Source of the DNA: a virus
Lineage: Duplodnaviria > Caudoviricetes
Direction: 5' to 3' (one strand)
Length of the DNA stretch: 52,254 bases
IMG/VR virus record: IMGVR_UViG_3300048817_000118
Span: 1 to 52,254 of that record
The notes beneath the pieces are model-generated. The model searched no databases, had not been told where the DNA came from, and saw only the letters and a program-made list of their open reading frames with translations. Of the stretch, positions 13,762 through 52,254 are shown piece by piece. The position numbers and the translations under genes are program-made. How positions within the stretch are numbered: the first letter of the stretch is position 1; every line of letters starts with the position of its first letter.

Positions 13762-13852
13762 AGTATAGGCCCCTGTGGGTAGATTTGTTCATAACCCTGG
13801 TTCTAGTGGCTACGTTCGCCATGGTCATCTACAGCTGCACGGTGCATCATTC

Positions 13853-19531: not shown

Positions 19532-19572
19532 AGCTGGCAATGTGGTACGTGAAGCAGAGGAGCGGCATATGA
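19336..19572 (+). CDS. LuxR/GerE-type HTH protein 2
   Basis: L.ERE..VL.LIAEG.KN.EIA...G.T...VAKN.LRAIYDKLGMSNRVELA. Confidence 0.85.
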   Translation: MSRRISPIVDRYGSRVLREREWRVLALIAEGCKNQEIADICGTTKDVAKNWLRAIYDKLGMSNRVELAMWYVKQRSGI

Positions 19573-20276
19573 AGAGTTTAGCGCTTATGCTCGTATTGGT
19601 AGCTCTGGCGTTTACTTCCGGATGCAAGAAGTTACCGGACCAGGTCACGGTGCTGCGCAACAGTGGTAAGACCCTGGAGGAGCGGGTTACGGTGGGCACC
19701 TCGGGCGGCCCCAGCGTGATGTTAAGCTGTTCGCCGGGCGCGGTGACGGCGCAGAACGGCGCGGCCACCAGCTTCGCGTTCTCGCGCGGCACCACTGCCG
19801 GCACGTCCTGCTCCCCGCTGCCCACCATGTCGCCGCTGGCCACGGCCACTACCTGCGGACTGATCGACCTTACGGTGGCGGCTGGCGCCAACTACTGCTA
19901 CGAGGTGGCTGGCGTAAACTCCGCCGGGACCAGCGCCCCCGACGGCCCGGTGTACGCTTCGGTGCCCGCTGTCGCGGGGCCACCCAACCCGCCCACCGGG
20001 CTGGCCGTGGTTACTATTACGAGCAAGAACGTATTGCTAAAGTGGACCGCGCCCGCGCCGCAGCCCGGCGTGGCCGTGGTTAACTACGCGCTGTACAACT
20101 GCTACGACGCCGCTTGCCCTAGCCCCCCCGCGCCCGTCGCGGTGAGCGGGACTGGGTACACTGCCGTTTGCAACCACCAGAATAAGACCTGCTACTTCAT
20201 GCTGCGGGCCAACGATACGGTGGCGGGCAAGGCGGTGCAGAGTGCGCCCAGCAACATCGCGAAGGCCACGGTTTAA
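19569..20276 (+). CDS. Predicted lipoprotein with two FN3-like domains
   Basis: MKSLALMLVLVALAFTSG/C lipobox-like; YCYEVAGVNSAG.S and PPNPPTGL...LKWTAP...Y.LY FN3 motifs; several Cys. Confidence 0.7.
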   Translation: MKSLALMLVLVALAFTSGCKKLPDQVTVLRNSGKTLEERVTVGTSGGPSVMLSCSPGAVTAQNGAATSFAFSRGTTAGTSCSPLPTMSPLATATTCGLIDLTVAAGANYCYEVAGVNSAGTSAPDGPVYASVPAVAGPPNPPTGLAVVTITSKNVLLKWTAPAPQPGVAVVNYALYNCYDAACPSPPAPVAVSGTGYTAVCNHQNKTCYFMLRANDTVAGKAVQSAPSNIAKATV

Positions 20277-21094
20277 TGAACTGGCAGCCCCGAAAGCGCA
20301 CGGAGCAAGAGTACGAGCGGTCGATCTTCGGCCTGTTTGCTAATGCCCTGGAGGAGTCGGAGCGCAGCGGCGTGCCCGTGCGGCTGCTGAGCGGTGTGGA
20401 GTTCCTGGCGCGCTACGCGGAGCAGGCCGCGTTAAGGATGATCACGGCGCTGTACTTCGCCGGGGCGCGGACCTGGCGCGAGGCGGCGCGGGCCAGCGGG
20501 AAGACGGCGTTGATGTACCAAGCCCTGCAGCGGGAGATGCGGGGGCCGGTGGGCGCGCGGGTAAGGGAGCTGGTTCGGGAGAACGCCAGGCTAATAGGCA
20601 GTTTCCCGCAGAGCGTTGCCAGCGCAGTGGCAGCGCGGGCGGCGGCGCAACAACAGGCGGGCGGTCGCGCGTCGGAGCTAGCTGCTAGGTCCTCCTTACT
20701 CCGGCGCGCCGCCCGCTGGCGCGCAAGGCTGGTGGCCCGCACGGAAGTCTCCAAGGCGTCTACGGCGCTTACGCAGGCGCGGAGCGAGGCGCTGGGGCTG
20801 CCGTGGTACGTGTGGGAGACCTCTCAGGACCAGCGCGTACGGGCCAGCCACAGGAAGATGCAGGGCGTGCTGGTGGCATGGGCTGACCCTCCGTCGCCCG
20901 AGCTGCTGGTGGGGGAGAAGGGCGAGGGGCACTACTACAACGCCGGGGACATCTACAATTGCCGGTGCTATCCCGCGCCGCTAGTGCGGCTGGACCAGAT
21001 CAGCTGGCCCCACCGCGTCTACCGCGACGGGGCCGTACGCTACATGACGCTCTCGCAGTTTAAACGTCTAAACCAACAGGAGGTGGCCGCATGA
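20276..21094 (+). CDS. Head morphogenesis protein (SPP1 gp7/Mu F-like)
   Basis: RARLVARTE, YVW.TS.D.RVR.SH, YNCRCYP.P. Confidence 0.9.
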   Translation: MNWQPRKRTEQEYERSIFGLFANALEESERSGVPVRLLSGVEFLARYAEQAALRMITALYFAGARTWREAARASGKTALMYQALQREMRGPVGARVRELVRENARLIGSFPQSVASAVAARAAAQQQAGGRASELAARSSLLRRAARWRARLVARTEVSKASTALTQARSEALGLPWYVWETSQDQRVRASHRKMQGVLVAWADPPSPELLVGEKGEGHYYNAGDIYNCRCYPAPLVRLDQISWPHRVYRDGAVRYMTLSQFKRLNQQEVAA

Positions 21095-23943: not shown

Positions 23944-24045
23944 TTGGATTCGTTGGCGTTCTATCATTTCGCCGGACTCGAGATTCCCATGACCGAAGAC
24001 GAGCTTGCGCAGGAATTTGACCGACTGTTTCCGCCCCAATAACCC

Positions 24046-38895: not shown

Positions 38896-39504
38896 ATGCC
38901 GGGCAGCTCTAATTTCTTAGTTTTTAATCCCACTTGTGCCAACCAAGAGCTCGACGCCACTTACTCGGCGGATGTGACCCGCACGGGCGGTATCGTCTTC
39001 GACCAAACCATGTCCTCGCTGCTTGCTAATAAGCTGATGTACCAGGTCAGCGTAGGGGTGGCCGGTCTGATGGCCGCTATGGCAAATAAAGGGTTCAATC
39101 CGAACGACGGCAACGGCGATCCGGCTCCGGCGCTGGCCAATCTAGCCGCTGTAATGGCCAACGTGCTGACCACCGCCGACTACTCCTCCATAATCGCGGC
39201 GGTGTTCCCCGGAGTAGCGTTTAATTTTACCCTCGGGGGCAGCTCCTACCTTAAGATGGGTTCCAACTTCGGGGGCCTGATCCTGCAGTTCGGGCTGGTC
39301 TCGCTCACCACTAACCCGCAAACCTTCACGCTTCCCGTGGCGTTTACCACCTCCCGACTGGCGGGGTTCATCAGCACGCCCTCCATCGGCAACCCCAACA
39401 CCGCCGGGATTGCGTTCAGTGGCGGGCTGAGCAACTTCGAGATCGAGGTATTCACTGGGTTCACCTCCGGGATCGAGTACTGGTACTTGGTGCTGGGACA
39501 CTAA
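38896..39504 (+). CDS. Short tail-fibre protein (baseplate anchor plus gp53-like C-terminus)
   Basis: NF..F....AN......Y..D..R..G......S..ANK..YQ.S; GLILQFG....F.LPVAF...YL.LG. Confidence 0.75.
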   Translation: MPGSSNFLVFNPTCANQELDATYSADVTRTGGIVFDQTMSSLLANKLMYQVSVGVAGLMAAMANKGFNPNDGNGDPAPALANLAAVMANVLTTADYSSIIAAVFPGVAFNFTLGGSSYLKMGSNFGGLILQFGLVSLTTNPQTFTLPVAFTTSRLAGFISTPSIGNPNTAGIAFSGGLSNFEIEVFTGFTSGIEYWYLVLGH

Positions 39505-39506: not shown

Positions 39507-42500
39507 ATGCGAAAATTCCTATCCGTACTGCTCTTGCTGGCCGCGACATTGATGACAGCAGCGGCCCAGAACACCACCACCTTTACCGCCTCGAACAGCG
39601 TCACCACGCTCACTGCCGCAGCCATCTACAGCGGTCCCGGCAGCCTTACGCCGCTGCCTACGGGCACCGCGCTGTTCCAAGCGACCAATGCCCTGGGAGT
39701 CCCGATCAGCTACCAGCTGGGCGGAGGCGGGCAGCAGATTTCGGTTCCCACCATATGCAGCATCGTGAACGGGGCCATAGTCCAGCCCTGCATGCTGGCC
39801 AACGTAGCTACTGCTAATCCGACCAACTTCTGCTACTCGCTTACCATCAAGAACAGCGCCAACCACGTGGTACTGGGCGGCCCTAGCTCCGGCTATCAGT
39901 GCTTGCAGCCGACCTTCACCAACACCTGGTGCTCGGCCGCCACCTGCGACCTGGACAACTTCAGCCCGACCGTTCCCCAGCAGATATTCACCCTGTCCAC
40001 GCCTACGCTGACCACGCTGGGCGGGGTCTACGGCGGCGACTGCCCCACCGGCCAGGCGGCCACGGGGTACAACGCCACCGGCCACCCGGACTGCGCCGTG
40101 GTAAGCGGCGGAGGCGGGGGAGCGGGCGTCTGGGGGGCGATTACCGGCACCTTGACCAACCAGACGGACCTGGAGAACGCGCTAGCTCTGCTGTCGCCGG
40201 TCGCCAGCCCGGTGTTTACCGGCATCCCCACCGCGCCCACGCCCATCACCAGCAGCAACGGCACCCAGGTGGCCAACACGGCCTACGTGCAGAACAACTT
40301 AGCCGGGTTCGCACCCATCAACAGCCCGGCGTTTACCGGCACTCCGTTGGCCCCCACCGTGGGGCTGAGCGACAGCTCCACCAAGCTGGCCACCACCGGG
40401 TACGTGCAGGGGCAGAACTACGTTACCGCCGTCAGCCCGGCGCTGACCGGCGTGCCCACCGCGCCCACGGCGGCTGTCAATACGAACACTACGCAGATCG
40501 CCACTACTCAGTTCGTAATTGGGCAAGGGTACGCGCCCATCACCAGCCCGACGTTCACCGGAGTCCCGGCAGCCCCCACGCCCCTTATTTCCGACAGCAG
40601 CACCAAGCTGGCCACCACCGCCTGGGTAAACGAGCAGGGCTACGGCACCGCCACGGGCAACGTGGCGGGGCCGGGTAGCAGCATACTTAACGACATCACG
40701 CTATTCGGAGGCACGAATGGAAAATCCATCGTCGACGCAGGTTTTGGATTCCCTTTGGCCGCAGCCCATATTGGGACCTTAGCAGCTGGAAGCAATGGGC
40801 TGGCAGCCTCTGCTACTACCGACACCACCAATGCTAGCAACATTAGCAGCGGTACTCTATCGCATGCAAGACTACCGGCACTGCTCAGCGGCGACATCCC
40901 TAACAACGCCGCCAACACCACTGGTACCGCTTCTAATGCCACTCTAGCCGCCCTAGCCACCGCCCTAGCCGCCGCGCCAGCGCAGTGCCTGGTGGCCGGG
41001 CAATTCGCCACCGGCATCACCGCCGCCGGGGTCGCCAACTGCTCCACGCCCACCGGCTCCGGCAACGTCACCGGGCCCGTGTCCTCCGTGGCCAACGACC
41101 TGGCCGTGTTCAACAACAACCTAGGCACCCTGCTGAGTGACTCCGCCGTGCCACTGAACACGCTGGCTACTTTAACTGGCACGCAGACGCTAACCAACAA
41201 GTCCATCTCCGCCAGCCAGATCAACAGCGGGGCGCTGGCCACGGCGGTAGGCGGCACTGGCACCAGCACCGGGCTCACAGGTATAGTGCGCGGCGGCAAC
41301 CCGTTCGCGGCCTCCGAGCTGAGCGGCGACGCCGCCACTTCCGGGTCGAATCTAGTCACCGTGAACGGGCTGAAGGGCGCGGCGCTGCCCGCGCCCATCA
41401 CCGGGTACCTGAACTACGTGGCCGGCACCGGGTGGGAGCTAAACGCCCTGCCCGGCGGCGGCAACGTCAACACTTCCGGGACGCCTACTGCAGGACAGAT
41501 CGGACTGTGGGTGACTAGCACGGCCATCCAGGGCGTGACCGCGCTGCCCGCCAGTGCCGAGCCCGCGCATACAGGCGACGTGACCAACGCCGCCGGGTCG
41601 CTGGCAACTACCGTGGTCCAAGTCGAGGGTGGGGCAATTCCCGCATCGGCGGCCTTGGTCGGCACCAACTCCAGCAAGCAGCTGGTTGCCAATACCGGCA
41701 CTATTACTAATAGCACGTCCGGGAACGCCGCCACGGCCACGGCTGCCGTAGCCCTGGCCTCCACCCCGGCGCAGTGCACTAGTGGGCAGTTCGCCACCGG
41801 CATCGCGGCCAACGGCACCGCCAACTGCACCACCCCGCCGGGCGGGGGCAACGTGAGCAACTCCGGCACTCCCACCGTGGGACAGATCGCGGCGTTCACC
41901 AGCGCCACCGTAATCCAAGGATTAACTACTCTCCCCACTTCCGCCGAGCCAGCGCACACCGGGGACGTAAGCAACTCGGCGGGGTCGCTGGGCATGACCG
42001 TGCTGCGGCTGAACGGAGGAACTATTCCGGTGTCGGCGGCGCTGGTCGGAACCAACTCCGGCTCACAGCTGGTGGCCAACACGGGGACCATTGCCAACAA
42101 CACCAGCGGCAATGCCGCCACAGCAACTTCCGCTACTACCGCCGCCACGGCCACGGCCCTAGGTGCCACGCCCGCGCAGTGTTCGGGCTCCACGTTCGCC
42201 ACCGGCATCACGGCCAACGGCACCGCCAACTGCGCCACCCCGGCTGGGTCGGGGAACGTCAGCAACACGGGCACCCCCACTACCGGGCAGCTCGCGGCGT
42301 TTACCAGCGCTACCGTGATCCAAGGCGTTACCACGCTGCCCACGGCGGCGGTTCCGGGGTTCACCGGCGACATGACCAACGGGGCCGGGTCGCTGGCCAC
42401 TATGGTGGGCAAGGTTAACGGCGGGCTGGTGCCCACTTCGGCTGCGCTGGTGGCCACCAACTCCTCCGCGCAGCCTGTGGCGGCGGCGCTGGCGCAGGGG

Positions 42501-45500
42501 AGCATCTTCGCGGGGAATTCGTCGAATCTACCGGTGGCGCAGGCCAAGCCAGTCATTGACGTAAGAGACATTCCGGGTGTGGACTGCACAGGAGTTTCTG
42601 ACAGTTCCACGGCGCTTAACGCGCTGACCGGTAATCCCCCTACCTCGAACAATGCGATCACAGGGAGAACACTGTCGTTTGGGAACTGCCCTAGCATCAA
42701 TTTGGCGAACACCTGGGTGGTCTACAACCAGGCCAGTTTCGTCATCAGCGGAGTTACGCGGAGCGGAGCGGCAGGCAAAGGACCGACAATCACATGGAGC
42801 GGATCATCTGGCGGGACGATGATCTCCATGAACTACGATGACGGGTGGCAAGTGGAAGGACTCAATTTCTTCGGGTCCACCGGGGCTGGTGTCGATGTCT
42901 TGTTCGACAAAAATGGTCCAGGAGGAATTTGGAATAGCACAGACGGGAAGTTTGTCAATGATACCTTCCAAGGTGCGAACTCGAACTGGATTGGCGTCTC
43001 CATCTCTCCTGTTTCAAAGGTAAATGTCGAAGACGTGCGGGTTGAGGACTCGTCATTCTACTGCAATGCTGCCGTGAGCACGACTGCGGCGATTGGAATC
43101 GAAGTGGGGGCCAGTTATAACGCCAAAAACGAAATTTACGCCCGCAACACGTTCCAGAATTGTTATTACGGGATCTACCAGAAGAACGGGTCTTTTGTAG
43201 CAAGTTACAATGAGTTTACGTCGAACGGCGGAACGTGCGGAAGCGGAGGCGGTGCAGACATCCGCGGCGATACAAGCAGTGACGTGGATATTATTGAAGG
43301 GAACCTAGACGAGAACAGCCTTCAAGGCTTCAGTATGAATGGCGATGTGCCGGGATTCGGATTTGGTCATCCTGTTATCTTCCGAGGGAATCATGCGGCT
43401 CCTGCTGGCTGCGAGAACCTTAGTCGTTATTGGTACAACGTTTTGGGAGGCACGGACTGGATTTTCCAAGGCAATTCATGGGACGCAGACAGTAGCCTAG
43501 TAAATGTCATTGGTTCTAACTATGCTGGCGGAAGCAACAATACCCACGTCTATGCATCTGGGAATAATTATCCCAACGCTGCCTTTACGCCGTGGTGGAC
43601 CAATGCAGCGGGAGGTTTCTCCGATGAACTGGGAATTACCAATGATCGACTTTTTACCTACGGCATAAAGCCGAATAGCGAACCTTCCGCTAGTGGAACG
43701 GAACCATCCCCATTGCTAGTGCTTCGCAGTTATGAAAATGGGGCCGTGTCCTCAGACGACATAGCATTTCAAAATATTGCCGGAAGAGGTAATGGACCCG
43801 GAACGCTACTGGTGAAGCACACAGGTTACGGAACAGACGTATTTGGTTGGGATGGCGCATACTCCGACATCAACATCATCGCGCTATCAACACCTTCGGT
43901 GTACCAGGTTTCATACGGGGGCACTACCGGATCAACCAGTTATACATACGCGATTGTAGCTTATGATTCGCTGGGAAATAGCGCAGGAAGCTCAACGTCT
44001 ACCTATGCCTCGGGCAACGCCATGCTTTCATCCACAAATTACAACCAAGTTCAGTGGTATCCCTTAGCCGGAGCGACTAAGTATTGCATTTGGAGAACGG
44101 CATCTAGCGGAACCCCATCAAGTACTGGTGACATTGGCTGCACGCCAGCGGTTGAGGCTAATGGGGGGCTGGGGAATTATCAGGCGCTTGTGTTTGGATA
44201 TGCACTCAACGGAAATCCGGTAACTGGCGCTTATACGTTCAATGACACAGGACTTGCGGGAGATTCATCGGTACTGCCGAGTACAAATACAACCGGCAGA
44301 ATCTCGGTTGCGGGTGAGATCACGTCCACTCTCACCACTGGCACTGCTCCATTCTCTGTGGCCTCCACCACAGTAGTACCCAACCTCAACGTTGAAGTCC
44401 TAAACGGCGTCACCGTCACTGGGACGCCCGCCACGGGCTACGTACCGACCGCGACCGGAGCCTCGACGGCAACGTGGCAGGCTCAAAGCGGCGGCGGACT
44501 CACTTTAGGCACCGCCGCTCAGGTCCCCGTGATGAACTCGGGGGCCACGGCTTACGCCCCGGTTACTATTTCCGGCGATGCCTCGATGACCAGCGCGGGC
44601 GTCCACACCAACAAGGGCATAAACGGCGTGCTGCTGTCCGGCCTGGCCACGGGCATAGTCAAGAACACTACTGCTACGGGAGTCCCCAGCATCGCCGTCG
44701 CCGCCGACTTCCCCACGTTGAACCAAGCCACCACGGGCAACGCCGCCACGGCCACCCTGGCCAGCACGGCCACGGCCCTGGCCTCCACCCCGGCGCAGTG
44801 CACTGGGTCCACGTTCGCCACCGGCATTACCGCTGCTGGCACTGCCAACTGCGCCACGCCTTCAGGTTCCGGCAATGTCAGCAACACTGGGACTCCTACG
44901 GCGGGCCAAATCGCAGCTTTCACTAGCGCCACCGTGATCCAAGGGCTATCGGCCATCCCCAACGGCATCACGGCCACCACCCAGACCACCGGCGACAACA
45001 CCACCAAATTGGCCACCGACGCCTTCGTGCTGGCCAACAGTAGTTTCACAGCGTACCAAACCAACAGCGTGCCCCTTACCTCCTCCGCGACCGTCAATTT
45101 CCAAAACTCCACCGCGTTCAACGGGCTGACGGCCACTTTTACTAACCCCTCGGCGGGCAACGTGCAGCTGGGGTTTAACGGCGCTCTGGGCAATGGCGGG
45201 CTGGCCAACTCCACCATCGGCGTCGCCGGCACGGCCAACCAGATCGTCAGCAGCGTTGCCGCCCCGGCGCTAGGGGGCTCGACTACATTAAGCATCGCCA
45301 ACCCATTCTCGTTCCCCGGAAAGTTCACCGCTTCCCTAAGCACCACCAGCGCCGCTAGCTACAACATTCCCAACGGAGCCGCTCCCACTGTCCCTGTAAA
45401 CGGGGACGAGTGGAGCCTGGCCGGGATTCGTCAATTTTACGATGGCACCCACACCAACTCGTTTACCACAATTCAGGGCGCGGTCACCAGCGGCCACTGT

Positions 45501-48500
45501 CCAGTGTTCAGCGGCACGGCCGGGCTGTTCGTGGACTCGGGAGCGAACTGCGGAGGCGTCCAAGTTTACCCTGGCGCGGGAGTGCCGAGCAGCACCGGGT
45601 CAGCCTGGGGCGCGTCCTACACGGTCGGCATCGTTGCTAACGATCTGGTGCAGCTTAACTCCAGCGCCCAGCTTCCGGCGGTGAGCGCGGCGCTGCTGAC
45701 TAACTTCCCCACCCTGAACCAATCCACCACGGGCAACGCCGCCACGGCCACCACGGCCACTTCCGCCACCACGGCGTCTACGGCTACGGCCCTGGCAGCT
45801 ACCCCGGCGCAATGCACTTCCGGACAATTTGCTACCGGTGTAACTGCAGCGGGCACCGCCAACTGCTCTACCCCGGCTGGATCAGGGAACGTCAGCAACA
45901 GCGGCACGCCCACGGCGGGCCAGATCGCAGCCTGGACCAGCTCCACCGTGATCCAGGGGCTATCGGCCATCCCCAACGGCATCACGGCCACCACCCAGAC
46001 CACTGGAGACAGCACTACTAAGATTGCCACTGATGCTTTTGTGTTGGCCAACAGCAGCTCCACCGCGTTCCAGGCCAACGGCACGGCTCTTACCTCCTCT
46101 GCGACTGTCAACTATGAGAACTCGGCCGCTTTTAACGGCCTGACCGTAACCTTCGCTAACCCCTCCGCCGGAAACGTGCAGGCGGGGCTTACGGGCACGC
46201 TGGGCAACGCCGGGCTGGCCAACTCCACCGTAGGCATCGTGGGCACGGCTAACCAGATCACCAGCAGCACCGCCGCCCCGGCGCTGGGCGGCAGCACTAC
46301 GATCGGCATCGCCAACCCCTTCTCGTTCCTCGGAAAGTTCACCGCCGCGCTAGGCACCACCAGCGCAGCCAGCTTTAACGTTCCTAGCGGGTCCGCACCG
46401 ACTGCCCCCGTTAGTGGGGACGAGTGGAACCTGGCGGGTGTGCACCAGTTCTACGACGGCACGCACACTAATTCTTTTACAACCATCCAAGGAGCCGTTA
46501 CCACTGGCCACTGTCCGCAGTTCAGCGGCACCGCAGGGCTGTTCGTGGACTCCGGCGCGGGCTGCGGCGGGGTCCAGGTCTACCCCGGCGCGGGCGTGCC
46601 CAGCAGCACCGGCTCGGCCTGGGGGGCGTCCTACACCGTGGGCACTGGGGTCAACAACTTGGTGCAGCTGAACTCCAGCTCGCAGCTGCCCGCCGTGAGC
46701 GCGGCGTTGCTAACTAACTTCCCCACCTTTAACCAGAATACCACCGGCACGGCCTCCAACCTTTCCGGAACGCCCGCTTTGCCGAGCGGGACGACGGGCA
46801 CTACGCAGACCACTGGGGACAACACCACTAAGCTGGCCACCGACGCCTTCGTGCTGGCCAACGGCGGAGCGGCCCCCCCGCTGGGGACCGCCGCTCAGAT
46901 TCCGGTAGTGAACTCGGGGGCCACGGCCTACGCGCCTGTAACCGTTTCGGGTGATGCTGTTTTGACCGCTGCGGGTGCCGTCACCAATAAGGGCATGAAC
47001 GGCGTGCTAATGTCAGGATTAGCCACGGGGATCGTAAAGAACACCACCACTACTGGAATCCCTAGCATAGCCGTGGCAGCGGACTTTCCAACGTTAAACC
47101 AAACCACCACGGGCAACGCCGCCACGGCCACCAGCGCGACCACGGCCACTACGGCCACCAGTGCGACCACGGCGGCCAACCTGAGTGGCACTCCGGCCCT
47201 GCCCAACGGCACCACCGGCACCACGCAGACCGTGGGTGATGGCAGCACTAAGCTGGCCACCGACGCCTTCGTGCTGGCCAACGCGGGAGGGGGCGGCGGT
47301 CCCACGCTAGGCACCGCCACGCAAATGCCAATCATGAACTCCGGGGCCACCGCCTACGTCCCCCAAACTATCTCTGGGGACGTGTCGGGCATCACGGCGG
47401 CGGGGGTCACCACGGTGGCGTCTTTGCACCTGGCCAGCCCCACCACCAACGCTATACTTAAGGAAACCTCCGGCGGCAACGCAGTGCCCTCCACCCTGCT
47501 GGACAACGGCACCACCGTTAGCACCTCGGAGCCGCTCACGGTGGGCGCTTCCGCCAACTTCACCATCGACGCCACCGGCGTAAGCACGGCGTACTCGTGG
47601 AAGCCGCCGGTAATCTCCGGGGCCACCACGGGCGCGCAGGTGTGGACCGGGACGGGCTCGGTGGAGCAGGGCAGCCTGTTCCCACTCCAGGGCACCGACG
47701 CCAACATCCTGAGCTCCGGGACCATTTCCGGCACGGGCGCGGCGCTGTGTACGGACGCCAACGGCGGCGCAAGCACCAGCGGCTGCTCCCCCGTGGGCCT
47801 TACCGGCCCGCTGCAGATCCCCGCGTCTTTGTCTACCGACATTTGCGGCGGCACTAGCAGCATCAAGTCCCTGCTGATAGCGCAGAACTCCAACACCGAC
47901 GCGGCCACCATCGACTTGCGGGCGCTAGTGGGGACCACGCTGGCCTGCCAGTCCGACCCGTTCGCCGGGTTTACCGGGTCGGGCCAGGTCATACAAGGCG
48001 GCTTCACGCTGGCCACCGACGTGCCCATCCTAGTCCCCACCGAGGTGAACTGGCACGGGGTGGGCGCGCCGGAAGGCGGCGGGTCGGCCATCCAGGCCAG
48101 CGCGACCTTCCACACCAACTTCCCGATGGTCGCCGGGGGCAGCGGCAGCGCGACCCTATGCGTCACTCCCGGTAGCGACGCCATTAAGATGGGGACCAAC
48201 GTGGCCGGAACCTGTACGGCGGGCGGCACCGGAACGTTTACCCCCGCCGGGCCCACTTCGCTGGTCCACTACGCCGTGGGCATTTGCCCTACCGGGGCCA
48301 CCTGCACCCCGATCAACACGGTCTTCATCGGCACGATTAACTCGGTTACGACCGCGTCCGCCGCCGTAATGGACGAGCAGCTGAACAGCCCGTTCACGCT
48401 GCCCGCCACCAGCGCGGGCTACCAGTACGTGTTCGTCATGCCGGTCACCATGCCCAGCCTGCGGAACACGGCCTGCATAGGTACCTCCGCCGCTTGCGAC

Positions 48501-49700
48501 TCCGAGCACCAGGAGATGGACCACGTTACGGTGGACTGCAACGACACCGCGACGGCCAACGACCAGCACATCGGGTACCTGCAGCTTTACGGGCAGGAGG
48601 GCACCAAGCTCCACGACGCCTCTCTGGTCAACTGCTACTGGTCGGACTTCGTAATCCACGGCAATAAGGGATCGCACAGCGGGCCATACTCCAACATCAA
48701 CGCCGGGAAGAACAACAACGCCGCCACCGTCCCGGTCTCGCTGTGGGGTATCCCGCCACTGGGAGGAATCAGCACCGTCACCATAGTGCCCAACACGGCC
48801 GTCCCGGTGGATATGTTCATATCGATGGACCCCGCTGGAGGGGGCGCGACGGACATAGGCCCCGAGATACACATGGAGAACGCCACCACCGGCATCCAGT
48901 GCGGCGACCTGGTGTCGTTCCCATGGGAGACGGGCGGCACGGGCTGCAGCAACGTCCGGTTCTCCACTTTGAGCGGGAACTCCAACCTGACCACCGTCCT
49001 TCACTTTGTCGCCGCGACCGGGGTGCCTTCGGTAAACGACGTGGTGGAGAATTCGATCACGGCGCAGTCCACGGTCGCAATATTGGACGACATCCACAGC
49101 GCGTCCATTGCCACATTTCCCCCGGTCTACGCCATCAGCACCGGGCAGTATCCGGACGGGTTGGCCGCCAGCCAGCTGACGGGGTCCACCGCCATGCTGA
49201 ATTTAACCTCCACCGCCAACGTGGAGGTCTCCCCCGTTTCCAGCGGCACCAACTACTTTAAGGTCAACATCGCCGGCACCGCCGCGCAACCAGCCTTGGT
49301 CAGCTCTACTAGCACTACAACGGGGCTGTACTTCCCGGCGGGTGGAGTGGGCGTGTCGGCGGCGGGCGCGAGCGTCGGGGTGTTCACCGCCAACGGTCTT
49401 GCCACTAGCGCGGTCGTGTCCACGGGGACCAAGTTCACGGCCTCGGGCTGCTCGAACTCTACCACGGTGGGCGGCGCGACGGCGGGCCGGTTTACCAGCC
49501 CCACCACGGGCCCTTGCACGGTCACCATCACGATGGGCAGCGGGGACACGGCCCCCAACGGGTGGGCATGCTTCGCCTCGGACCAGACGACCCCCGCCAA
49601 CCTGTACGACCAGAAGTCGGGCGGCTCCACGACTACGGCAGTGCTCAGTGGGTCTACGTTGGCGGGGGACGTGATCAGCTTCGGGTGCATCGGGTACTGA
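39507..49700 (+). CDS. Giant (3397 aa) signal-peptide fibre/adhesin-like protein
   Basis: MRKFLSVLLLLAATLMTAAA/Q; SP.FTG.PTAPT fibre repeats, Cys-paired modules, beta-helix-like domains. Confidence 0.8.
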   Translation: MRKFLSVLLLLAATLMTAAAQNTTTFTASNSVTTLTAAAIYSGPGSLTPLPTGTALFQATNALGVPISYQLGGGGQQISVPTICSIVNGAIVQPCMLANVATANPTNFCYSLTIKNSANHVVLGGPSSGYQCLQPTFTNTWCSAATCDLDNFSPTVPQQIFTLSTPTLTTLGGVYGGDCPTGQAATGYNATGHPDCAVVSGGGGGAGVWGAITGTLTNQTDLENALALLSPVASPVFTGIPTAPTPITSSNGTQVANTAYVQNNLAGFAPINSPAFTGTPLAPTVGLSDSSTKLATTGYVQGQNYVTAVSPALTGVPTAPTAAVNTNTTQIATTQFVIGQGYAPITSPTFTGVPAAPTPLISDSSTKLATTAWVNEQGYGTATGNVAGPGSSILNDITLFGGTNGKSIVDAGFGFPLAAAHIGTLAAGSNGLAASATTDTTNASNISSGTLSHARLPALLSGDIPNNAANTTGTASNATLAALATALAAAPAQCLVAGQFATGITAAGVANCSTPTGSGNVTGPVSSVANDLAVFNNNLGTLLSDSAVPLNTLATLTGTQTLTNKSISASQINSGALATAVGGTGTSTGLTGIVRGGNPFAASELSGDAATSGSNLVTVNGLKGAALPAPITGYLNYVAGTGWELNALPGGGNVNTSGTPTAGQIGLWVTSTAIQGVTALPASAEPAHTGDVTNAAGSLATTVVQVEGGAIPASAALVGTNSSKQLVANTGTITNSTSGNAATATAAVALASTPAQCTSGQFATGIAANGTANCTTPPGGGNVSNSGTPTVGQIAAFTSATVIQGLTTLPTSAEPAHTGDVSNSAGSLGMTVLRLNGGTIPVSAALVGTNSGSQLVANTGTIANNTSGNAATATSATTAATATALGATPAQCSGSTFATGITANGTANCATPAGSGNVSNTGTPTTGQLAAFTSATVIQGVTTLPTAAVPGFTGDMTNGAGSLATMVGKVNGGLVPTSAALVATNSSAQPVAAALAQGSIFAGNSSNLPVAQAKPVIDVRDIPGVDCTGVSDSSTALNALTGNPPTSNNAITGRTLSFGNCPSINLANTWVVYNQASFVISGVTRSGAAGKGPTITWSGSSGGTMISMNYDDGWQVEGLNFFGSTGAGVDVLFDKNGPGGIWNSTDGKFVNDTFQGANSNWIGVSISPVSKVNVEDVRVEDSSFYCNAAVSTTAAIGIEVGASYNAKNEIYARNTFQNCYYGIYQKNGSFVASYNEFTSNGGTCGSGGGADIRGDTSSDVDIIEGNLDENSLQGFSMNGDVPGFGFGHPVIFRGNHAAPAGCENLSRYWYNVLGGTDWIFQGNSWDADSSLVNVIGSNYAGGSNNTHVYASGNNYPNAAFTPWWTNAAGGFSDELGITNDRLFTYGIKPNSEPSASGTEPSPLLVLRSYENGAVSSDDIAFQNIAGRGNGPGTLLVKHTGYGTDVFGWDGAYSDINIIALSTPSVYQVSYGGTTGSTSYTYAIVAYDSLGNSAGSSTSTYASGNAMLSSTNYNQVQWYPLAGATKYCIWRTASSGTPSSTGDIGCTPAVEANGGLGNYQALVFGYALNGNPVTGAYTFNDTGLAGDSSVLPSTNTTGRISVAGEITSTLTTGTAPFSVASTTVVPNLNVEVLNGVTVTGTPATGYVPTATGASTATWQAQSGGGLTLGTAAQVPVMNSGATAYAPVTISGDASMTSAGVHTNKGINGVLLSGLATGIVKNTTATGVPSIAVAADFPTLNQATTGNAATATLASTATALASTPAQCTGSTFATGITAAGTANCATPSGSGNVSNTGTPTAGQIAAFTSATVIQGLSAIPNGITATTQTTGDNTTKLATDAFVLANSSFTAYQTNSVPLTSSATVNFQNSTAFNGLTATFTNPSAGNVQLGFNGALGNGGLANSTIGVAGTANQIVSSVAAPALGGSTTLSIANPFSFPGKFTASLSTTSAASYNIPNGAAPTVPVNGDEWSLAGIRQFYDGTHTNSFTTIQGAVTSGHCPVFSGTAGLFVDSGANCGGVQVYPGAGVPSSTGSAWGASYTVGIVANDLVQLNSSAQLPAVSAALLTNFPTLNQSTTGNAATATTATSATTASTATALAATPAQCTSGQFATGVTAAGTANCSTPAGSGNVSNSGTPTAGQIAAWTSSTVIQGLSAIPNGITATTQTTGDSTTKIATDAFVLANSSSTAFQANGTALTSSATVNYENSAAFNGLTVTFANPSAGNVQAGLTGTLGNAGLANSTVGIVGTANQITSSTAAPALGGSTTIGIANPFSFLGKFTAALGTTSAASFNVPSGSAPTAPVSGDEWNLAGVHQFYDGTHTNSFTTIQGAVTTGHCPQFSGTAGLFVDSGAGCGGVQVYPGAGVPSSTGSAWGASYTVGTGVNNLVQLNSSSQLPAVSAALLTNFPTFNQNTTGTASNLSGTPALPSGTTGTTQTTGDNTTKLATDAFVLANGGAAPPLGTAAQIPVVNSGATAYAPVTVSGDAVLTAAGAVTNKGMNGVLMSGLATGIVKNTTTTGIPSIAVAADFPTLNQTTTGNAATATSATTATTATSATTAANLSGTPALPNGTTGTTQTVGDGSTKLATDAFVLANAGGGGGPTLGTATQMPIMNSGATAYVPQTISGDVSGITAAGVTTVASLHLASPTTNAILKETSGGNAVPSTLLDNGTTVSTSEPLTVGASANFTIDATGVSTAYSWKPPVISGATTGAQVWTGTGSVEQGSLFPLQGTDANILSSGTISGTGAALCTDANGGASTSGCSPVGLTGPLQIPASLSTDICGGTSSIKSLLIAQNSNTDAATIDLRALVGTTLACQSDPFAGFTGSGQVIQGGFTLATDVPILVPTEVNWHGVGAPEGGGSAIQASATFHTNFPMVAGGSGSATLCVTPGSDAIKMGTNVAGTCTAGGTGTFTPAGPTSLVHYAVGICPTGATCTPINTVFIGTINSVTTASAAVMDEQLNSPFTLPATSAGYQYVFVMPVTMPSLRNTACIGTSAACDSEHQEMDHVTVDCNDTATANDQHIGYLQLYGQEGTKLHDASLVNCYWSDFVIHGNKGSHSGPYSNINAGKNNNAATVPVSLWGIPPLGGISTVTIVPNTAVPVDMFISMDPAGGGATDIGPEIHMENATTGIQCGDLVSFPWETGGTGCSNVRFSTLSGNSNLTTVLHFVAATGVPSVNDVVENSITAQSTVAILDDIHSASIATFPPVYAISTGQYPDGLAASQLTGSTAMLNLTSTANVEVSPVSSGTNYFKVNIAGTAAQPALVSSTSTTTGLYFPAGGVGVSAAGASVGVFTANGLATSAVVSTGTKFTASGCSNSTTVGGATAGRFTSPTTGPCTVTITMGSGDTAPNGWACFASDQTTPANLYDQKSGGSTTTAVLSGSTLAGDVISFGCIGY
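44709..46718 (+). repeat. About 1-kb diverged tandem duplication inside the giant gene
   Basis: FPTLNQ...LPAVSAALLTN block occurs twice (44709-45704, 45705-46718). Confidence 0.9.
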
Positions 49701-52254
49701 TGCGCCGGTTGATCCTACTGCTGTTTATGGCGACGGGCTTCACGTTCGCGTCGGACATTTACTTCGCTCCGAGTTCGGCGGGGTCGAACAACGGAACTTC
49801 CTGTAGCAATGCCTACGCATATAGTGACGGCTCGCACGGCTGGAGCGTAGCTGGGCAGCAAGTAGCCGGAAACAATCTTCATGTCTGCGCCGGAACGTAC
49901 ACGATTTCGTCCGGCGGAACCGCGCTAACCACTCACACCAATGGCTCGAGCGGCAGCCCAATCACGTTCATTGCCGATCAGGGGATTGCGATTCTTCAGT
50001 CTCCTGCCTTTGGCACTGCGCTATCTCTCAACAATACCTACTGGGTAATCAACGGCGTCCAGTCTATAGGCACGGTGAATACACAGAATGCTGCTACCGG
50101 AGGTTGCGCCGCCAATTGTGTCAGTTGGGTGTCGGGGCCAACCTTTAAGACTAACCAGCCCGCAATCGCCATCGCCGGACAATACTATCCGGTTGCCTCG
50201 GTCATCAGTTCGACACTGCTTCAGGTCACAGACCAAAGCGGCAGTGGAGTGTTCGCTCCCGGTACGCAGACCGGTGTACCCTATGCCGCCAACAACCTAA
50301 CAATTCAGAACACGCTGAACGGCACGTCTGGCGCGACTTGCGCCGGAGGCTCTTGCAGTCTTCAGAATTCGACAATCGCAGCGGATATCAGCGCCAACAA
50401 CGTCACGATTGAGAACGTTCATATCCAGAACATGTACGTTCACAACTACTTGAATCCATCGAACGATGTTACGGCGGGCGTGCTGTTCGGCATCGAGGGG
50501 TTGGGCGTGAACAACGTCACGATCAGCGGGAATACGTTCAGCGAAACGCGGCTGGCGATAACGCTTTGGGGCAACAGCGTCACCATTAACAATAACTCCT
50601 TCTTCGACAATGCCGCGACGTGGTGGTTCGGTCCTAACACGACGACGACGGGCGGGGTGTACCACGACAATTACATGTCAAACATCGGGAACTGGAACCA
50701 TAGCGGCCACCTGGAGTATGTCCACCACTTCAGCAGTCCCGGCATAGAAACCGGGATGATGCTTTATAACAACTTCTACGGAAGCACGAACTGCGCCTAC
50801 GGACCGCCTCCGCCTGCTCTGGGTGATTGTAGCGGCACGGCGAAATTCTACCACGAAGGATCGAGCGCGAACGAGACGCACTTTAACGAAGTGTTCATCA
50901 GCGATGACGGTATTGGTTACCTCCCCGGAATCGAATACGAAAACGGCACGCTGGGCGGAGGTCACACTCACACTAATCTGACCGTGGTTAATGAAACCTT
51001 TCTCCAGGGTTCGGAAGTCGGAACAGGGAACGTTGGGATGCAGTGGGATAGCGGCATGAGCAACGCCACCTTCCAGAACAATTTGGTAGGTGGTGGAATC
51101 ACTCTGGCGTTCTTCACTCAGAGTGTGGGAGCTTTTATTTCAGATGGTATCAACTACAACGTCTACGAGAACATTAACGCTGATTTAGGTGCCACAAATA
51201 ACTGGGGTGCGCCTTGTACCAGTGGCGGCGGTTGCGTACCCCTAGCAACTTGGCAGGCGGCATTGCCTTCGGGCAGTGGAACCGACGCAAACTCAGTCCT
51301 GAACACACTTACAAACCTGAAGGTAAGCGCCACCACAGGTCTACTCAGTTCAGGTTCTCCCGCTATCGGGTTGGGCGTGAATCTGACCGGAACACTTTCA
51401 CTTCCAGCCGCATGGAATACCGGGGCTCCGCAATTCTTTGGAGCGGGCGGAACATGTGGAACCGGCTGCGTGGCGCGACCTTCGACTGGCGCTGTGGATG
51501 TGGGTGCTTACCCCTTTTCCTCTGGTGGTGGTAGCTTCGCGCTCACAGTCACCGACGTCGGCACCGGCACGGTGACCAGCTCGCCCTCGGGCATCAGCTG
51601 CCCCGGCACCTGCTCCGCCAGCTACGCCTCCGGCACCGTGGTCACGCTTACCGCCGCCGCTGGGACGGGATACACCTTTACCGGGTGGTCCGGAGCAAGC
51701 TGCAGCGGCACCGGTACCTGCGCGGTGACCATGTCGGCTGCGAAGTCGGTCACGGCCACATTCGCCGTGCAAAATTTGCCTACCTTGCCTCGGTTGTGGG
51801 TCAACAATAACGAAGGCAACGCGGCGTTCAGTTACGAATTGAGCCTGCCGTCTACTTGGATCACGGGACCGCCGGGGGGGTGCACCTTCCACGTACCGTA
51901 CTGGTCCGGGGTTCCCACGCTGGTCGGATTTCAGTCGGCGATTGTGGACATAGAGGTGTGTCGCACAGCTACTGGGGTAGGAATAATGCTGGACATTCCT
52001 CCGGCGCTTTATACCGGCGCTTCGGGGTTGTATGTTCCTCAGTCCAACACGGTGCAGGCGACCACTTTCCTAGGAATGCGTTCCAATCAAGATGCGTTCT
52101 TGCCGAACGGTACCACAGTTTGCTCCCACGGTATCCAGGACAACTTAGCCACCTCGACCGACATAGGCTTGGATAATCCGGATTGCGCCGGAGACGTGAT
52201 GTACTACCAGTTGGGAACGACGCAGACCACGGTGTCGGTTGGACCGATTACGCT
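49700..52254 (+). CDS. >850-aa signal-peptide beta-helix protein with choice-of-anchor-Q-like and InlB-B/Flg_new-like domains (truncated)
   Basis: Not in the ORF track; translated by hand with no stop to the window end. TGATG overlap with the giant gene; MRRLILLLFMATGFTFA/SDIYFA; GSPAIG.G...RP...DVGAY; GTGTVTSSPSGISC..C...GT.VTLTA....FTGWSG..C.GTG.C.VTM. Confidence 0.85.
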   Translation, partial: MRRLILLLFMATGFTFASDIYFAPSSAGSNNGTSCSNAYAYSDGSHGWSVAGQQVAGNNLHVCAGTYTISSGGTALTTHTNGSSGSPITFIADQGIAILQSPAFGTALSLNNTYWVINGVQSIGTVNTQNAATGGCAANCVSWVSGPTFKTNQPAIAIAGQYYPVASVISSTLLQVTDQSGSGVFAPGTQTGVPYAANNLTIQNTLNGTSGATCAGGSCSLQNSTIAADISANNVTIENVHIQNMYVHNYLNPSNDVTAGVLFGIEGLGVNNVTISGNTFSETRLAITLWGNSVTINNNSFFDNAATWWFGPNTTTTGGVYHDNYMSNIGNWNHSGHLEYVHHFSSPGIETGMMLYNNFYGSTNCAYGPPPPALGDCSGTAKFYHEGSSANETHFNEVFISDDGIGYLPGIEYENGTLGGGHTHTNLTVVNETFLQGSEVGTGNVGMQWDSGMSNATFQNNLVGGGITLAFFTQSVGAFISDGINYNVYENINADLGATNNWGAPCTSGGGCVPLATWQAALPSGSGTDANSVLNTLTNLKVSATTGLLSSGSPAIGLGVNLTGTLSLPAAWNTGAPQFFGAGGTCGTGCVARPSTGAVDVGAYPFSSGGGSFALTVTDVGTGTVTSSPSGISCPGTCSASYASGTVVTLTAAAGTGYTFTGWSGASCSGTGTCAVTMSAAKSVTATFAVQNLPTLPRLWVNNNEGNAAFSYELSLPSTWITGPPGGCTFHVPYWSGVPTLVGFQSAIVDIEVCRTATGVGIMLDIPPALYTGASGLYVPQSNTVQATTFLGMRSNQDAFLPNGTTVCSHGIQDNLATSTDIGLDNPDCAGDVMYYQLGTTQTTVSVGPIT

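What the first reader, a model, noticed from the sequence alone, without database searches (positions are those of the whole stretch)
39507..52254. Exported, Cys-paired giant proteins at the tail-fibre locus
Seen: right after a very short 202-aa fibre gene come a 3397-aa gene and a >850-aa gene, tightly coupled (2-nt gap, then TGATG overlap). Both start with a Sec-type signal (basic, hydrophobic, A-x-A-like), are Thr/Gly/Ser/Asn-rich and carry many regularly spaced Cys pairs. They mix phage fibre motifs (SP.FTG.PTAPT, T.IATT.FV) with bacterial secreted-protein modules. Known: tailed virions assemble in the reducing cytoplasm and fibres normally lack signal peptides. Inference: either receptor-binding appendages folded oxidatively in the periplasm and loaded on virions at lysis, perhaps via the short fibre as adaptor, or phage-encoded surface adhesins. 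This is the best candidate for an undescribed system.
Basis: partly seen in the sequence, partly recalled or inferred. Interest (0 to 1): 0.85.

Follow-up and report, generated by a model that had tools for sequence, protein, structure and literature searches.

The report
Phage fibre-like proteins carrying export signals
An uncultured contractile-tailed soil phage, like a very large group of its relatives, puts ordinary bacterial secretion signals and paired cysteines on the giant fibre-like proteins encoded after its tail fibre gene, so these proteins almost certainly fold outside the cytoplasm where the phage particle is built.

Summary
A 3397-aa gene (39507-49700) and a 3'-open gene of more than 851 aa (49700-52252) follow a 202-aa fibre gene. 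Both begin with Sec-type signal peptides and have even cysteine counts (48 and 20).

The giant's leader precedes a conserved ~180-aa N-domain:
- The leader is present in all 23 related viral loci.
- It is present, or cut only by a truncated gene call, in 147 of 148 database representatives. The family has 1254 clusters.
- The predicted cleavage site follows the -3/-1 rule, with Gln at +1.
- 134 of 153 members have an even cysteine count.

Export and oxidative folding are therefore well supported, by sequence only.

The adaptor idea is not supported. The short fibre carries its own pyocin-type receptor-binding foot, and relatives without leader-bearing genes have a complete tail module. The N-domain's best fold match is the baseplate-anchoring ring domain of cyanophage A-1(L)'s short tail fibre. 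It also occurs in lambda-like siphophage tail loci, where no window-encoded partner protein is shared.

My best reading (0.5): these are exported, non-virion proteins that target envelope glycans, resembling Bdellovibrio MAT fibres and Pantoea WceF. Joining to virions at lysis remains possible (0.2).

This scan has noted export signals on phage fibres on other DNA several times. I found no description in print.

The parts
38896..39504 (+). Short tail fibre (202 aa). N-terminal ~95 aa conserved with the baseplate module; C-terminal receptor-binding 'foot' domain.
   Evidence: Pfam Gp53-like_C, E 9e-5, 23.4 bits against a cut-off of 24.9, so below threshold. AF2 model pLDDT 67.9. Residues 105-202 match AP22 gp53 (4mtm: Z 10.8, rmsd 2.3, 94 aligned) and the R2 pyocin fibre foot (6cl6_A: Z 9.1). 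Alignment of 21 homologues.
39507..49700 (+). Giant exported fibre-like protein (3397 aa, 48 Cys).
   Evidence: ORF and translation. No full-length relative: 30 other hits cover 2-10 % of it. No Pfam family, whole or in six pieces.
39507..39566 (+). Predicted Sec/SPase I signal peptide, residues 1-20, cleavage AAA|QN.
   Evidence: Sequence. An ATG leader is present in 24 of 24 loci.
39567..40106 (+). Conserved N-domain, residues 21-200: a beta-sandwich with four cysteine pairs.
   Evidence: Alignments A1 and A2. AF2 mean pLDDT 77.5, with residues ~8-135 of the mature chain at 83-97. Best fold match is 8kec_b, the cyanophage A-1(L) tail fibre, residues 1-105 (Z 9.6, rmsd 2.0, 95 aligned); the next match has Z 6.5. 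1254 database clusters at E<=1e-3.
40125..40706 (+). Phage tail-fibre repeats (SPxFTGxPxAPT ... TxIATTxFV), residues ~207-400.
   Evidence: Sequence. PHROG tail-fibre families match residues 207-297 (E 4e-15 to 1e-2) when the first 298 aa are scanned alone. Internal repeat 230-263 against 343-376.
40977..42482 (+). Repeated modules that each hold one Cys pair spaced 17-18 (CxxGQFATGIxxxGxANC), residues ~491-992. Further copies lie near residues 1762 and 2102.
   Evidence: Cysteine positions. Self-comparison.
44907..46757 (+). Tandem duplication inside the gene: residues 1801-2079 against 2139-2417, 80-87 % identical.
   Evidence: Self-BLAST of tiles.
49700..52252 (+). Second exported protein (more than 851 aa, 3' open, 20 Cys). 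Right-handed beta-helix-like body plus an InlB B-repeat domain.
   Evidence: Translation. Pfam Flg_new_2 at residues 615-690, E 7.6e-10. ESM Atlas structural neighbours are Acidobacteriota hypothetical beta-helix proteins (TM 0.83-0.84 by row, 474-485 aligned) and Pel9A-like or Beta_helix clusters. Leader-bearing relatives lie downstream of the N-domain gene in L003 and L007.
49700..49750 (+). Predicted signal peptide of the second protein, residues 1-17, cleavage TFA|SD.
   Evidence: Sequence. Hydropathy. Heuristic.
21091..23943 (+). A further leader-bearing protein in the head module (950 aa, 18 Cys, MRLFKALGAVLLFSALALA|QA). It shares a 69-aa module with the giant (67 % identity).
   Evidence: Low G+C (0.514) at 22001-24000. 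No Pfam or PHROG family.
19569..20276 (+). Lipobox protein (MKSLALMLVLVALAFTSG|C) with a weak fn3 match.
   Evidence: (fn3 E 7e-4, below cut-off).

Best explanation
The two genes encode tail-fibre- and tailspike-like proteins that the host Sec system exports.

Proposed steps:
1. Signal peptidase I cuts them, leaving Gln at the new N-terminus.
2. They fold with disulfide bonds in the periplasm.
3. They are made together with the late tail genes, because their starts abut the preceding stop codons.
4. They are not built into the particle in the cytoplasm.

I think they most likely act as free or envelope-anchored proteins. A conserved N-domain would hold or trimerise the molecule, and variable fibre, collagen and beta-helix parts would bind or cut the host's surface or matrix polysaccharides. 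They would act in the envelope of the infected cell and, once lysis frees them, on debris and neighbouring cells. That would ease escape of progeny and access to new hosts.

The particle's own receptor binding would be done by the leaderless 202-aa fibre with its pyocin-type foot.

Status of each step:
- Shown by sequence statistics: signal peptide, cleavage-site rule, cysteine pairing, gene position.
- Inferred: export itself, disulfide bonds, the glycan target, and that the proteins are not virion parts.
For: Export signal:
- An ATG-initiated leader lies 0 to a few nt after the upstream stop in most of the 24 loci. No conserved internal start exists.
- 141 of 148 representatives have a hydrophobic 10-mer in the first 60 aa. 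Of the 7 misses, 3 have visible leaders just under my threshold, 3 are gene calls that start inside the leader, and 1 starts at the mature end.
- At -3, A occurs in 87 of 133. At -1, A in 107 and G in 20 of 133. Gln is at +1 in 133 of 153 by pattern, plus 11 more by eye.

Cysteines:
- 134 of 153 members have an even count in the mature part (p 1.7e-22), with a median of 2.1 % Cys. Leaderless giant fibres that share the same repeats have 0-0.6 %.
- Cysteine pairs are lost together in P0004, L019 and L020.

Accessory nature:
- Related tail modules in four bacterial genomes end with the short fibre alone (L027, L028, L034; also the Firmicutes loci L030-L032 with leaderless fibres).
- The short fibre has its own receptor-binding foot.
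- By one and the same rule, 34 of 44 ORFs of >=250 aa downstream in 16 non-redundant loci are leader-bearing, against 9 of 83 upstream. 16 of the 34 are the N-domain genes themselves.
- The cassette mixes N-domain proteins with host-type secreted beta-helix proteins such as the second gene.
- Leader-bearing proteins also sit in the head module and between baseplate J and DUF2612 in L003 and L007.
- N-domain genes occur in lambda-like siphophage loci where no other of the 19 window proteins finds a match.
- A distant N-domain protein lies among ordinary chromosomal genes in one Acidobacteriota-phylum genome (L043).

Published analogues (passages read):
- Bdellovibrio MAT fibres: signal peptide, conserved ~130-aa beta-rich N-domain, phage-like trimeric fibre, variable tips with disulphides, exposed on the cell surface (PMC10769870).
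- Pantoea WceF: an exported tailspike-like exopolysaccharide hydrolase that keeps a P22-type head-binding N-domain (PMC7949094).
Against: - The genes sit in the classical fibre slot. In cultured enterobacterial relatives (baseplate J ~39-41 % identical) that slot holds leaderless 659-aa and 267-aa proteins.
- The N-domain's best fold match, standing clear of the next hit, is a baseplate-anchoring domain of a myophage fibre. Weaker matches are the P22 and Sf6 tailspike particle-binding domains.
- The N-domain diverges at the same rate as baseplate J (0.52 against 0.49), as a docking domain would.
- The family is nearly confined to viral contigs: 23 viral loci, 0 confirmed in a pattern scan of 185,579 species genomes, and 2 weak matches in 301 genomes of the phylum.
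- No enzymatic family was detected in the giant, so the glycan-cutting role is inference.
- Sec export alone does not carry a protein across the outer membrane.
- No trained signal-peptide predictor and no experiment were available.
Confidence: 0.5

Rival explanations
1. Periplasm-matured virion fibres. The proteins are exported and oxidatively folded. They join completed particles only when holin, endolysin and spanin action mixes periplasm and cytoplasm, and the N-domain docks on the baseplate or tail tip.
For: - Fibre slot and translational coupling.
- Conserved N-domain with hypervariable C-terminal parts.
- Fold match to the A-1(L) short-tail-fibre ring domain, which encircles the wedges (Z 9.6; PMC10966104 passages).
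- Two N-domain paralogues with different bodies in one phage, in L004, L013 and L019, as in phages with several receptor-binding proteins.
- Leaderless occupants of the same slot in cultured relatives.
- The family is almost confined to phage contigs.
- Virions with disulfide bonds exist (Agrobacterium phage Milano, PMC10491603; search listing only).
- Recalled, from no call: T4 long fibres attach to finished particles in vitro.
Against: - No partner is shared between the myophage and siphophage loci.
- The short fibre is a complete receptor-binding protein, and relatives do without the leader-bearing genes.
- Cassette members without the N-domain resemble host secreted enzymes.
- WceF shows that a particle-binding fold can persist in a non-virion exported protein.
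- No tailed phage is described in print with this assembly route in the searches I ran.
Confidence: 0.2
2. Lysogenic-conversion surface fibres or polymorphic-toxin-like filaments. The proteins would be made from a prophage and displayed on the lysogen as adhesins, exclusion factors or toxin stalks.
For: - The architecture equals that of Bdellovibrio MAT surface fibres.
- Tail-fibre repeats are listed among the stalks of secreted polymorphic toxins (PMC3482391 tables).
- Prophage relatives in Acidobacteriota metagenome-assembled genomes carry leader-bearing genes before the lysis genes (L024, L025).
- One chromosomal, non-phage relative exists (L043).
Against: - There is no room for an own promoter, and no excess of promoter- or terminator-like sites (3 promoter-like sites against 4.5 expected).
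- The starts abut the late fibre gene.
- The family is rare in bacterial genomes (2 of 301; 0 of 4 genomes holding related prophages).
- No toxin or immunity family was found in the C-terminal piece.
Confidence: 0.12
3. Not exported. The hydrophobic N-terminus would be an assembly or membrane-tethering element of an ordinary cytoplasmic fibre, and the cysteines would oxidise only after release.
For: - All export evidence is sequence-based.
- Disulfide bonds can form in released virions (search listing only).
Against: - The -3/-1 rule and the +1 Gln are conserved, which matters only if the peptide is cut.
- The leader diverges freely in sequence while keeping its n/h/c layout in 24 of 24 loci.
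- Neighbouring host proteins in L042 and L043 show the same ...AQ| pattern.
- Cysteine-rich bodies go with leaders and cysteine-poor bodies go without.
Confidence: 0.08

Closest known systems
Bdellovibrio bacteriovorus mosaic adhesive trimer (MAT) fibres (Caulton et al. 2024, PMC10769870; passages read)
   Same: Signal peptide, then a conserved beta-rich N-domain of ~130 aa, then a phage-like trimeric fibre with swappable tips that hold disulphides. One end is conserved for retention and the other is diversified.
   Different: MATs are chromosomal genes of a predatory bacterium, shown to be on its surface. The proteins here are late phage genes in the fibre slot. I could not test homology of the two N-domains because no MAT sequence could be fetched. 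The paper says the MAT N-domain has no structural homologue in the PDB, whereas this one matches 8kec.
Short tail fibre gp33 of cyanophage A-1(L) (PDB 8KEC; PMC10966104; passages read)
   Same: The N-domain model superposes on residues 1-105 of the chain (Z 9.6, rmsd 2.0, 95 residues). The gene order baseplate J-like, gpI-like, fibre, fibre is also alike.
   Different: gp33 has no leader (the match starts at residue 1) and is part of the virion. No sequence similarity is detectable. That chain 8kec_b is gp33 is my inference, from its length of 280 and the domain limits given in the paper.
Pantoea stewartii WceF (PMC7949094; passages read)
   Same: An exported, trimeric, tailspike-like protein that keeps a phage-type N-terminal particle-binding fold and acts on the cell's own exopolysaccharide.
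   Different: It has a Tat rather than a Sec signal, is a bacterial gene inside a polysaccharide synthesis cluster, is a single beta-helix enzyme of 736 aa, and has demonstrated activity.
Leaderless tail fibres sharing the same repeats, for example 'GDSL lipase and tail fiber [Cryophage ML09]' (P0003), and the proteins after the short fibre in Klebsiella phage ST16-OXA48phi5.2 (MK448230.1)
   Same: SPxFTGxPxAPT fibre repeats (55 % identity over 4 % of the query). Same slot behind baseplate J, DUF2612 and the short fibre.
   Different: No signal peptide, few cysteines (3 in 1947 aa), and no N-domain.
Signal peptides on Porphyromonas gingivalis phage proteins and the Bacteroidetes Q-rule (Matrishin et al. 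2023, PMC10367356, search listing only; PMC10653852 and PMC5837995, passages read)
   Same: Phage proteins that adopt the host's leader style, with Gln at +1.
   Different: A different host phylum. PMC10653852 calls those phage proteins 'of yet unknown function'.

Membership tests
Sec/signal peptidase I substrates | Basic n-region, uncharged hydrophobic h-region of about 10-15 residues, and a c-region with small residues at -3 and -1 | tested here: met
   Window sequences. In the family, -3 is A in 87 of 133 and -1 is A or G in 127 of 133. This used my own rule, not SignalP.
Sec/signal peptidase I substrates | The leader is part of the translated protein in homologues, that is, no conserved start lies after it | tested here: met
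   24 of 24 loci have the ATG before the leader. 6 of 24 have no ATG or GTG at residues 12-42, and an SD-like site occurs in only a few.
Sec/signal peptidase I substrates | Demonstrated export and cleavage | not testable with these tools
   Needs a reporter fusion or N-terminal mass spectrometry.
Virion tail fibre / receptor-binding protein of tailed phages | Gene directly behind the baseplate or tail-tip genes, with a conserved N-terminus and a variable C-terminus | tested here: met
   In 18 of 23 viral loci the gene directly follows the short fibre, and in 1 more it comes after intervening leader-bearing genes. In A6 a consensus is visible only over the first ~200 columns.
Virion tail fibre / receptor-binding protein of tailed phages | Leaderless, assembled in the cytoplasm | tested here: not met
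   A leader is present in all homologues examined.
Virion tail fibre / receptor-binding protein of tailed phages | Present in purified particles | not testable with these tools
   No cultured member: tblastn of the N-domain found nothing in 50,697 GenBank phage records.
Bdellovibrio MAT superfamily | Signal peptide, conserved ~130-aa beta-rich N-domain, trimeric fibre, variable tip | tested here: met
   Architecture only: (Collagen in 4 of 68 and Beta_helix in 3 of 68), compared with the paper's passages.
Bdellovibrio MAT superfamily | Homology of the N-domain to the MAT N-domain | not tested
   No MAT sequence was at hand.
A-1(L) gp33-type baseplate ring domain | Same fold | tested here: met
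   Z 9.6, rmsd 2.0, 95 aligned; the next unrelated hit has Z 6.5. Foldseek alone gave E 0.08 for 8kec_a.
A-1(L) gp33-type baseplate ring domain | Detectable sequence homology | tested here: not met
   The A2 profile against PDB sequences gave only one unrelated hit at E 0.14.
R-pyocin / AP22 gp53 fibre foot (for the 202-aa fibre) | C-terminal foot fold | tested here: met
   4mtm Z 10.8; 6cl6_A Z 9.1; 6cxb Z 7.9. Pfam Gp53-like_C is just under its cut-off.
Polymorphic toxins with tail-fibre stalks | C-terminal toxin domain followed by an immunity gene | tested here: inconclusive
   No Pfam family in the last 698 aa. The next gene is another leader-bearing beta-helix-like protein. Toxin-specific libraries were not searched.
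Right-handed beta-helix polysaccharide lyases/hydrolases (for the second protein) | Beta-helix fold | tested here: inconclusive
   Atlas neighbours have TM 0.83-0.84 by row and 0.52-0.53 by query, and feature scores of 0.85-0.88, which are leads only. There is no Pfam Beta_helix hit.

The most novel reading that the evidence does not exclude
A very large, uncultured family of tail fibres of soil phages (1254 clusters at 50 % identity) may be exported through Sec, cut, and disulfide-bonded in the periplasm. These fibres would dock by a gp33-like ring domain onto finished myophage and siphophage tails only when lysis mixes the two compartments. That would be a two-compartment assembly route unknown for tailed phages.
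Probability: 0.2. Interest if true: 0.9.

Novelty: new variant of a known kind. Interest (0 to 1): 0.62.

Why it matters
Tailed phage particles are held to assemble wholly in the cytoplasm. Here a huge environmental family of fibre-like late proteins carries conserved secretion signals.

There are two possibilities:
- Many soil phages send host-recognition-type proteins into the envelope for a purpose not yet described, such as egress, receptor destruction or priming of neighbouring cells.
- Part of the particle matures outside the cytoplasm.

Either would change how fibre-slot genes in metagenomes are read, for host prediction and for mining of receptor-binding proteins and depolymerases. It also points to disulfide-stabilised glycan binders from acidic soils.

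The family offers a simple handle for experiments: a ~20-aa leader plus a ~180-aa domain.

Tried and rejected
Dual-start idea (a second start just after the leader giving a cytoplasmic isoform). Rejected: 6 of 24 loci have no ATG or GTG at residues 12-42, the window has Thr at the aligned position, and SD-like sites are sporadic.

Complex prediction of three short-fibre chains with three N-domains. It returned 'no answer' (score 0.00; the controls were not run). It is counted neither for nor against binding.

Co-variation:
- 13 of 15 loci with the N-domain gene have a short fibre ending W.A(I/V)G, while L024 and L025 (the other leader family) end L(H/R)PLT. The genes are adjacent and therefore linked, so I do not count this as evidence of contact.
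- Pairwise-distance correlations were weak throughout (0.04-0.34).

Family and sequence searches that found nothing:
- Pfam and PHROGs on the whole giant.
- Pfam on six pieces of the giant and one piece of the second protein.
- PHROGs on eight other leader-bearing proteins.
- Pfam on five prophage leader-bearing proteins, apart from Beta_helix/NosD in one.
- PDB sequence profiles for the N-domain and for the short fibre.

Other negative or unusable steps:
- Foldseek against the PDB gave no match at E<=1e-3 for the N-domain.
- The window's ends carry no terminal repeat, and its start does not continue the second gene.
- Searches of four genomes holding related prophages found no N-domain. The tool itself says an empty answer there shows nothing.

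Paper searches for a described export route of tailed-phage fibres gave no such paper in the listings. I read passages of PMC12210884 (irrelevant) and PMC3482391.

I could not verify that.
Full report
SETTING
The 'genome' held for this window is the 52,254-base contig itself. It is a contractile-tailed phage. The following genes all lie on the + strand:
- terminase (9978-11264)
- portal (12250-13761)
- protease (13775-15238)
- major head protein (15979-17112)
- sheath (28005-29396)
- tape-measure-like protein (30513-31901)
- baseplate hub (33066-34181)
- wedge (34842-35507)
- Baseplate_J (35716-36906)
- a phrog_2448 protein (36920-37966)
- DUF2612 (37975-38886)
- a 202-aa fibre (38896-39504)

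The finding's two genes follow, and the contig ends inside the second.

THE OBSERVATION
- a 2-nt gap before the ATG at 39507, and the TGATG overlap at 49698-49702
- two leader-like N-termini
- a T/A/G/S/N-rich composition
- 48 and 20 cysteines, with at least 10 pairs in the giant spaced 17-18 residues apart
- classical fibre repeats at residues ~207-400, which match tail-fibre PHROGs once that part is scanned alone (the whole protein gave nothing)

The giant is built of repeats. These include a Cys-pair module present about eight times and a tandem duplication of roughly 280-340 aa at 80-87 % identity.

By a crude rule of my own, 4 of 34 late-region genes carry a leader: the two genes of the finding, a 950-aa protein in the head module, and a lipobox protein. 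None of the 30 canonical structural genes does.

IS THE SIGNAL PEPTIDE REAL?
The giant has no full-length relative. Thirty other hits cover only 2-10 % of it. Three of them (P0004, P0006, P0007) share its first ~200 residues, leader included.

A scan of viral contigs with that alignment gave 23 loci.
- All 23 have M-(K/R)-K, a hydrophobic run, and A-x-A|Q directly before the conserved domain.
- In most loci the ATG lies within a few bases of the upstream stop. L020 is an exception, with ~190 nt between the genes.

A profile search of 1.84 billion representatives found 1254 proteins at E<=1e-3 and 937 at E<=1e-10. In the best 150 the domain almost always starts at residue 1-20. Of the 148 that were new:
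- 141 pass a hydrophobicity test.
- Of the 7 that miss, 3 have visible leaders just below threshold, 3 are gene calls that start inside the leader, and 1 (185 aa) starts at the mature end.

The cleavage region obeys the -3/-1 rule: A in 87 of 133 at -3, and A or G in 127 of 133 at -1. Gln is at +1 in 133 of 153 by pattern, and in 11 more by eye. Seven have A-x-A followed by T, A or E. A residue conserved at +1 matters only if the chain is cut there.

Host proteins next to a chromosomal relative show the same ...AQ| style. The published 'Q-rule' is described for Bacteroidetes only. Acidobacteria do not occur in the text of either Q-rule paper (term searches).

CYSTEINES
134 of 153 members have an even cysteine count after residue 30 (p 1.7e-22), with a median of 2.1 % Cys. 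The leaderless giant fibres that share the repeats have 0-0.6 %.

In the N-domain, the pairs 84/95 and 142/147 are lost together in P0004, L019 and L020.

Disulfide bonds also occur in some released virions (search listing). The cysteines alone would therefore not prove a periplasmic route. Together with the leader they fit it.

WHERE THE GENES SIT
- In 18 of 23 viral loci the N-domain gene directly follows homologues of the short fibre, DUF2612, Baseplate_J, wedge and hub. Five pairs of these loci are near-duplicates, which leaves 18 distinct loci.
- In L008, leader-bearing genes lie in between.
- L009 starts at the gene.
- L019-L021 share nothing else with the window.
- L019 and L020 are lambda-like siphophage tail tips with a J-like protein. 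L021 is another long-tail type. L019 has two N-domain paralogues in a row.

Downstream, 34 of 44 ORFs of >=250 aa in 16 non-redundant loci have a leader at some in-frame start. This count includes the 16 N-domain genes that defined the set, and it runs on into the lysis and later genes.

Upstream, 9 of 83 ORFs do. Of those 9:
- Seven are further genuine-looking leader-bearing proteins.
  - Two are in the window's head module.
  - Two lie between Baseplate_J and DUF2612 in L003 and L007.
  - Three belong to the cassettes of L008 and L019.
- Two look like false positives.

The cassette of one to six leader-bearing genes usually ends at small holin-like, endolysin-like and lipoprotein genes.

WHAT THE RELATIVES WITHOUT LEADERS SHOW
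A scan of species genomes with Baseplate_J gave 15 loci.
- Acidobacteriota metagenome-assembled genomes (L025; L024, labelled Actinomycetota) have two or three leader-bearing genes after the short fibre. These carry a different N-terminal motif.
- The Nitrospiraceae, Caldisericales and one Acidobacteria locus (L027, L028, L034) end the tail module with the short fibre alone.
- Firmicutes relatives have leaderless fibres.
- Cultured enterobacterial relatives (~39-41 % identity in Baseplate_J) have leaderless 659-aa and 267-aa proteins in the slot.

The short fibre's C-terminal half folds like AP22 gp53 and the R-pyocin foot (Z 10.8 and 9.1). It is also the fastest-evolving part of the locus. 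The short fibre is thus a receptor-binding protein in its own right, not an adaptor.

THE N-DOMAIN
AF2 with 18 sequences gives a confident beta-sandwich.
- Foldseek found no PDB match at E<=1e-3. Its best rows were the P22 and Sf6 tailspike particle-binding domains and cyanophage fibres.
- The second-look aligner puts the A-1(L) tail fibre chain 8kec_b, residues 1-105, clearly first (Z 9.6, rmsd 2.0, 95 residues; next Z 6.5).
- According to the paper, residues 2-110 of the short tail fibre gp33 form a ring of 18 domains around the wedges.
- That the chain is gp33 is my inference from its length.

This is the strongest point for a virion role. Against it, Pantoea WceF is an exported, non-virion enzyme that keeps a P22-type head-binding domain. 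All 21 Bdellovibrio MAT surface fibres have exactly this layout of leader, ~130-aa beta-rich domain and phage-like fibre.

The N-domain matches no PHROG family when the giant's first 298 aa are scanned and has no tblastn match in 50,697 GenBank phage records. It is rare in bacterial genomes: 0 confirmed in a pattern scan and 2 weak matches in 301 genomes of the phylum. One of those two lies among ordinary chromosomal genes.

THE SECOND PROTEIN
It has an InlB B-repeat domain. In the ESM Atlas its own model resembles Acidobacteriota hypothetical beta-helix proteins and Pel9A-like clusters (leads only). Leader-bearing relatives lie in the same position in L003 and L007. It lacks the N-domain.

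READING
Export and oxidative folding: about 0.9, from sequence evidence only.

Destination:
- I give 0.5 to exported, non-virion, glycan-targeting fibres and enzymes, made late and freed at lysis.
- I give 0.2 to fibres that join particles at lysis.
- I give 0.12 to lysogen surface fibres.
- I give 0.08 to no export at all.

- The genes are accessory, and relatives do without them.
- The cassette has a mixed make-up.
- Leader-bearing genes occur in several variable slots.
- The N-domain is used with two tail types without a shared partner.
- Two published analogues exist.

Points for the second reading:
- The genes occupy the fibre slot.
- The N-domain matches the fold of gp33.
- The N-domain diverges at the rate of baseplate proteins.
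- The family is almost confined to phages.

EARLIER NOTES OF THIS SCAN
The same phenomenon has been noted on other DNA. Later checks there priced the virion-joining reading at about 9-10 in 100. Those notes led me to the MAT and Q-rule papers, which I then read in passages. I did not take their conclusions as evidence.

Noticed in passing
window 41-406: Tandem array of a 15-nt unit (CAGGTTCGCGCCGCA), 24.4 copies at 86 % matches, at the left end of the contig. It is open in all three frames there.
   Followed up: partly
window 21091-23943: A 950-aa leader-bearing protein with 18 Cys sits in the head module behind a Mu F-like gene, in a low-G+C patch (0.514). It shares a 69-aa module (67 % identity) with the giant. 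It has no Pfam or PHROG family.
   Followed up: partly
window 24410-25201: A 263-aa protein with a papain-family (Peptidase_C1) match, E 2.9e-7, lies between the head and tail modules.
   Followed up: no
window 37975-38330: The DUF2612 protein starts with three copies of a ~17-residue repeat (..ARDSQDVVLPVT..) before the conserved part, which begins near residue 118.
   Followed up: no
L003 6679-8487; L007 1781-3166; L024 4894-9936; L025 12445-15072: A second family of leader-bearing proteins has the mature N-terminus Q-(I)TP-x-L-x-F-x-V/IP-x-x-G-x-x-NW...N..LD. It is placed either between Baseplate_J and DUF2612 or after the short fibre. No PHROG or Pfam family matches.
   Followed up: partly
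L042/L043 (G263:C1:70000-105900): Ordinary chromosomal exported proteins of this Acidobacteriota-phylum genome often show ...AQ| or ...GQ| before the mature chain. That is a Gln+1 habit published only for Bacteroidetes. I did not count it over a whole proteome.
   Followed up: no
window 39507-49700: A method caution. The whole 3397-aa protein gave no PHROG hit, but its first 298 aa alone hit 15 families, most of them tail-fibre families. Long repetitive proteins should be scanned in pieces.
   Followed up: yes
L008 2798-16610: One relative carries at least six consecutive leader-bearing genes (1323, 315, 762, 298, 297, 555 and 830 aa, among others) between its short fibre and the lysis-type genes.
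   Followed up: partly
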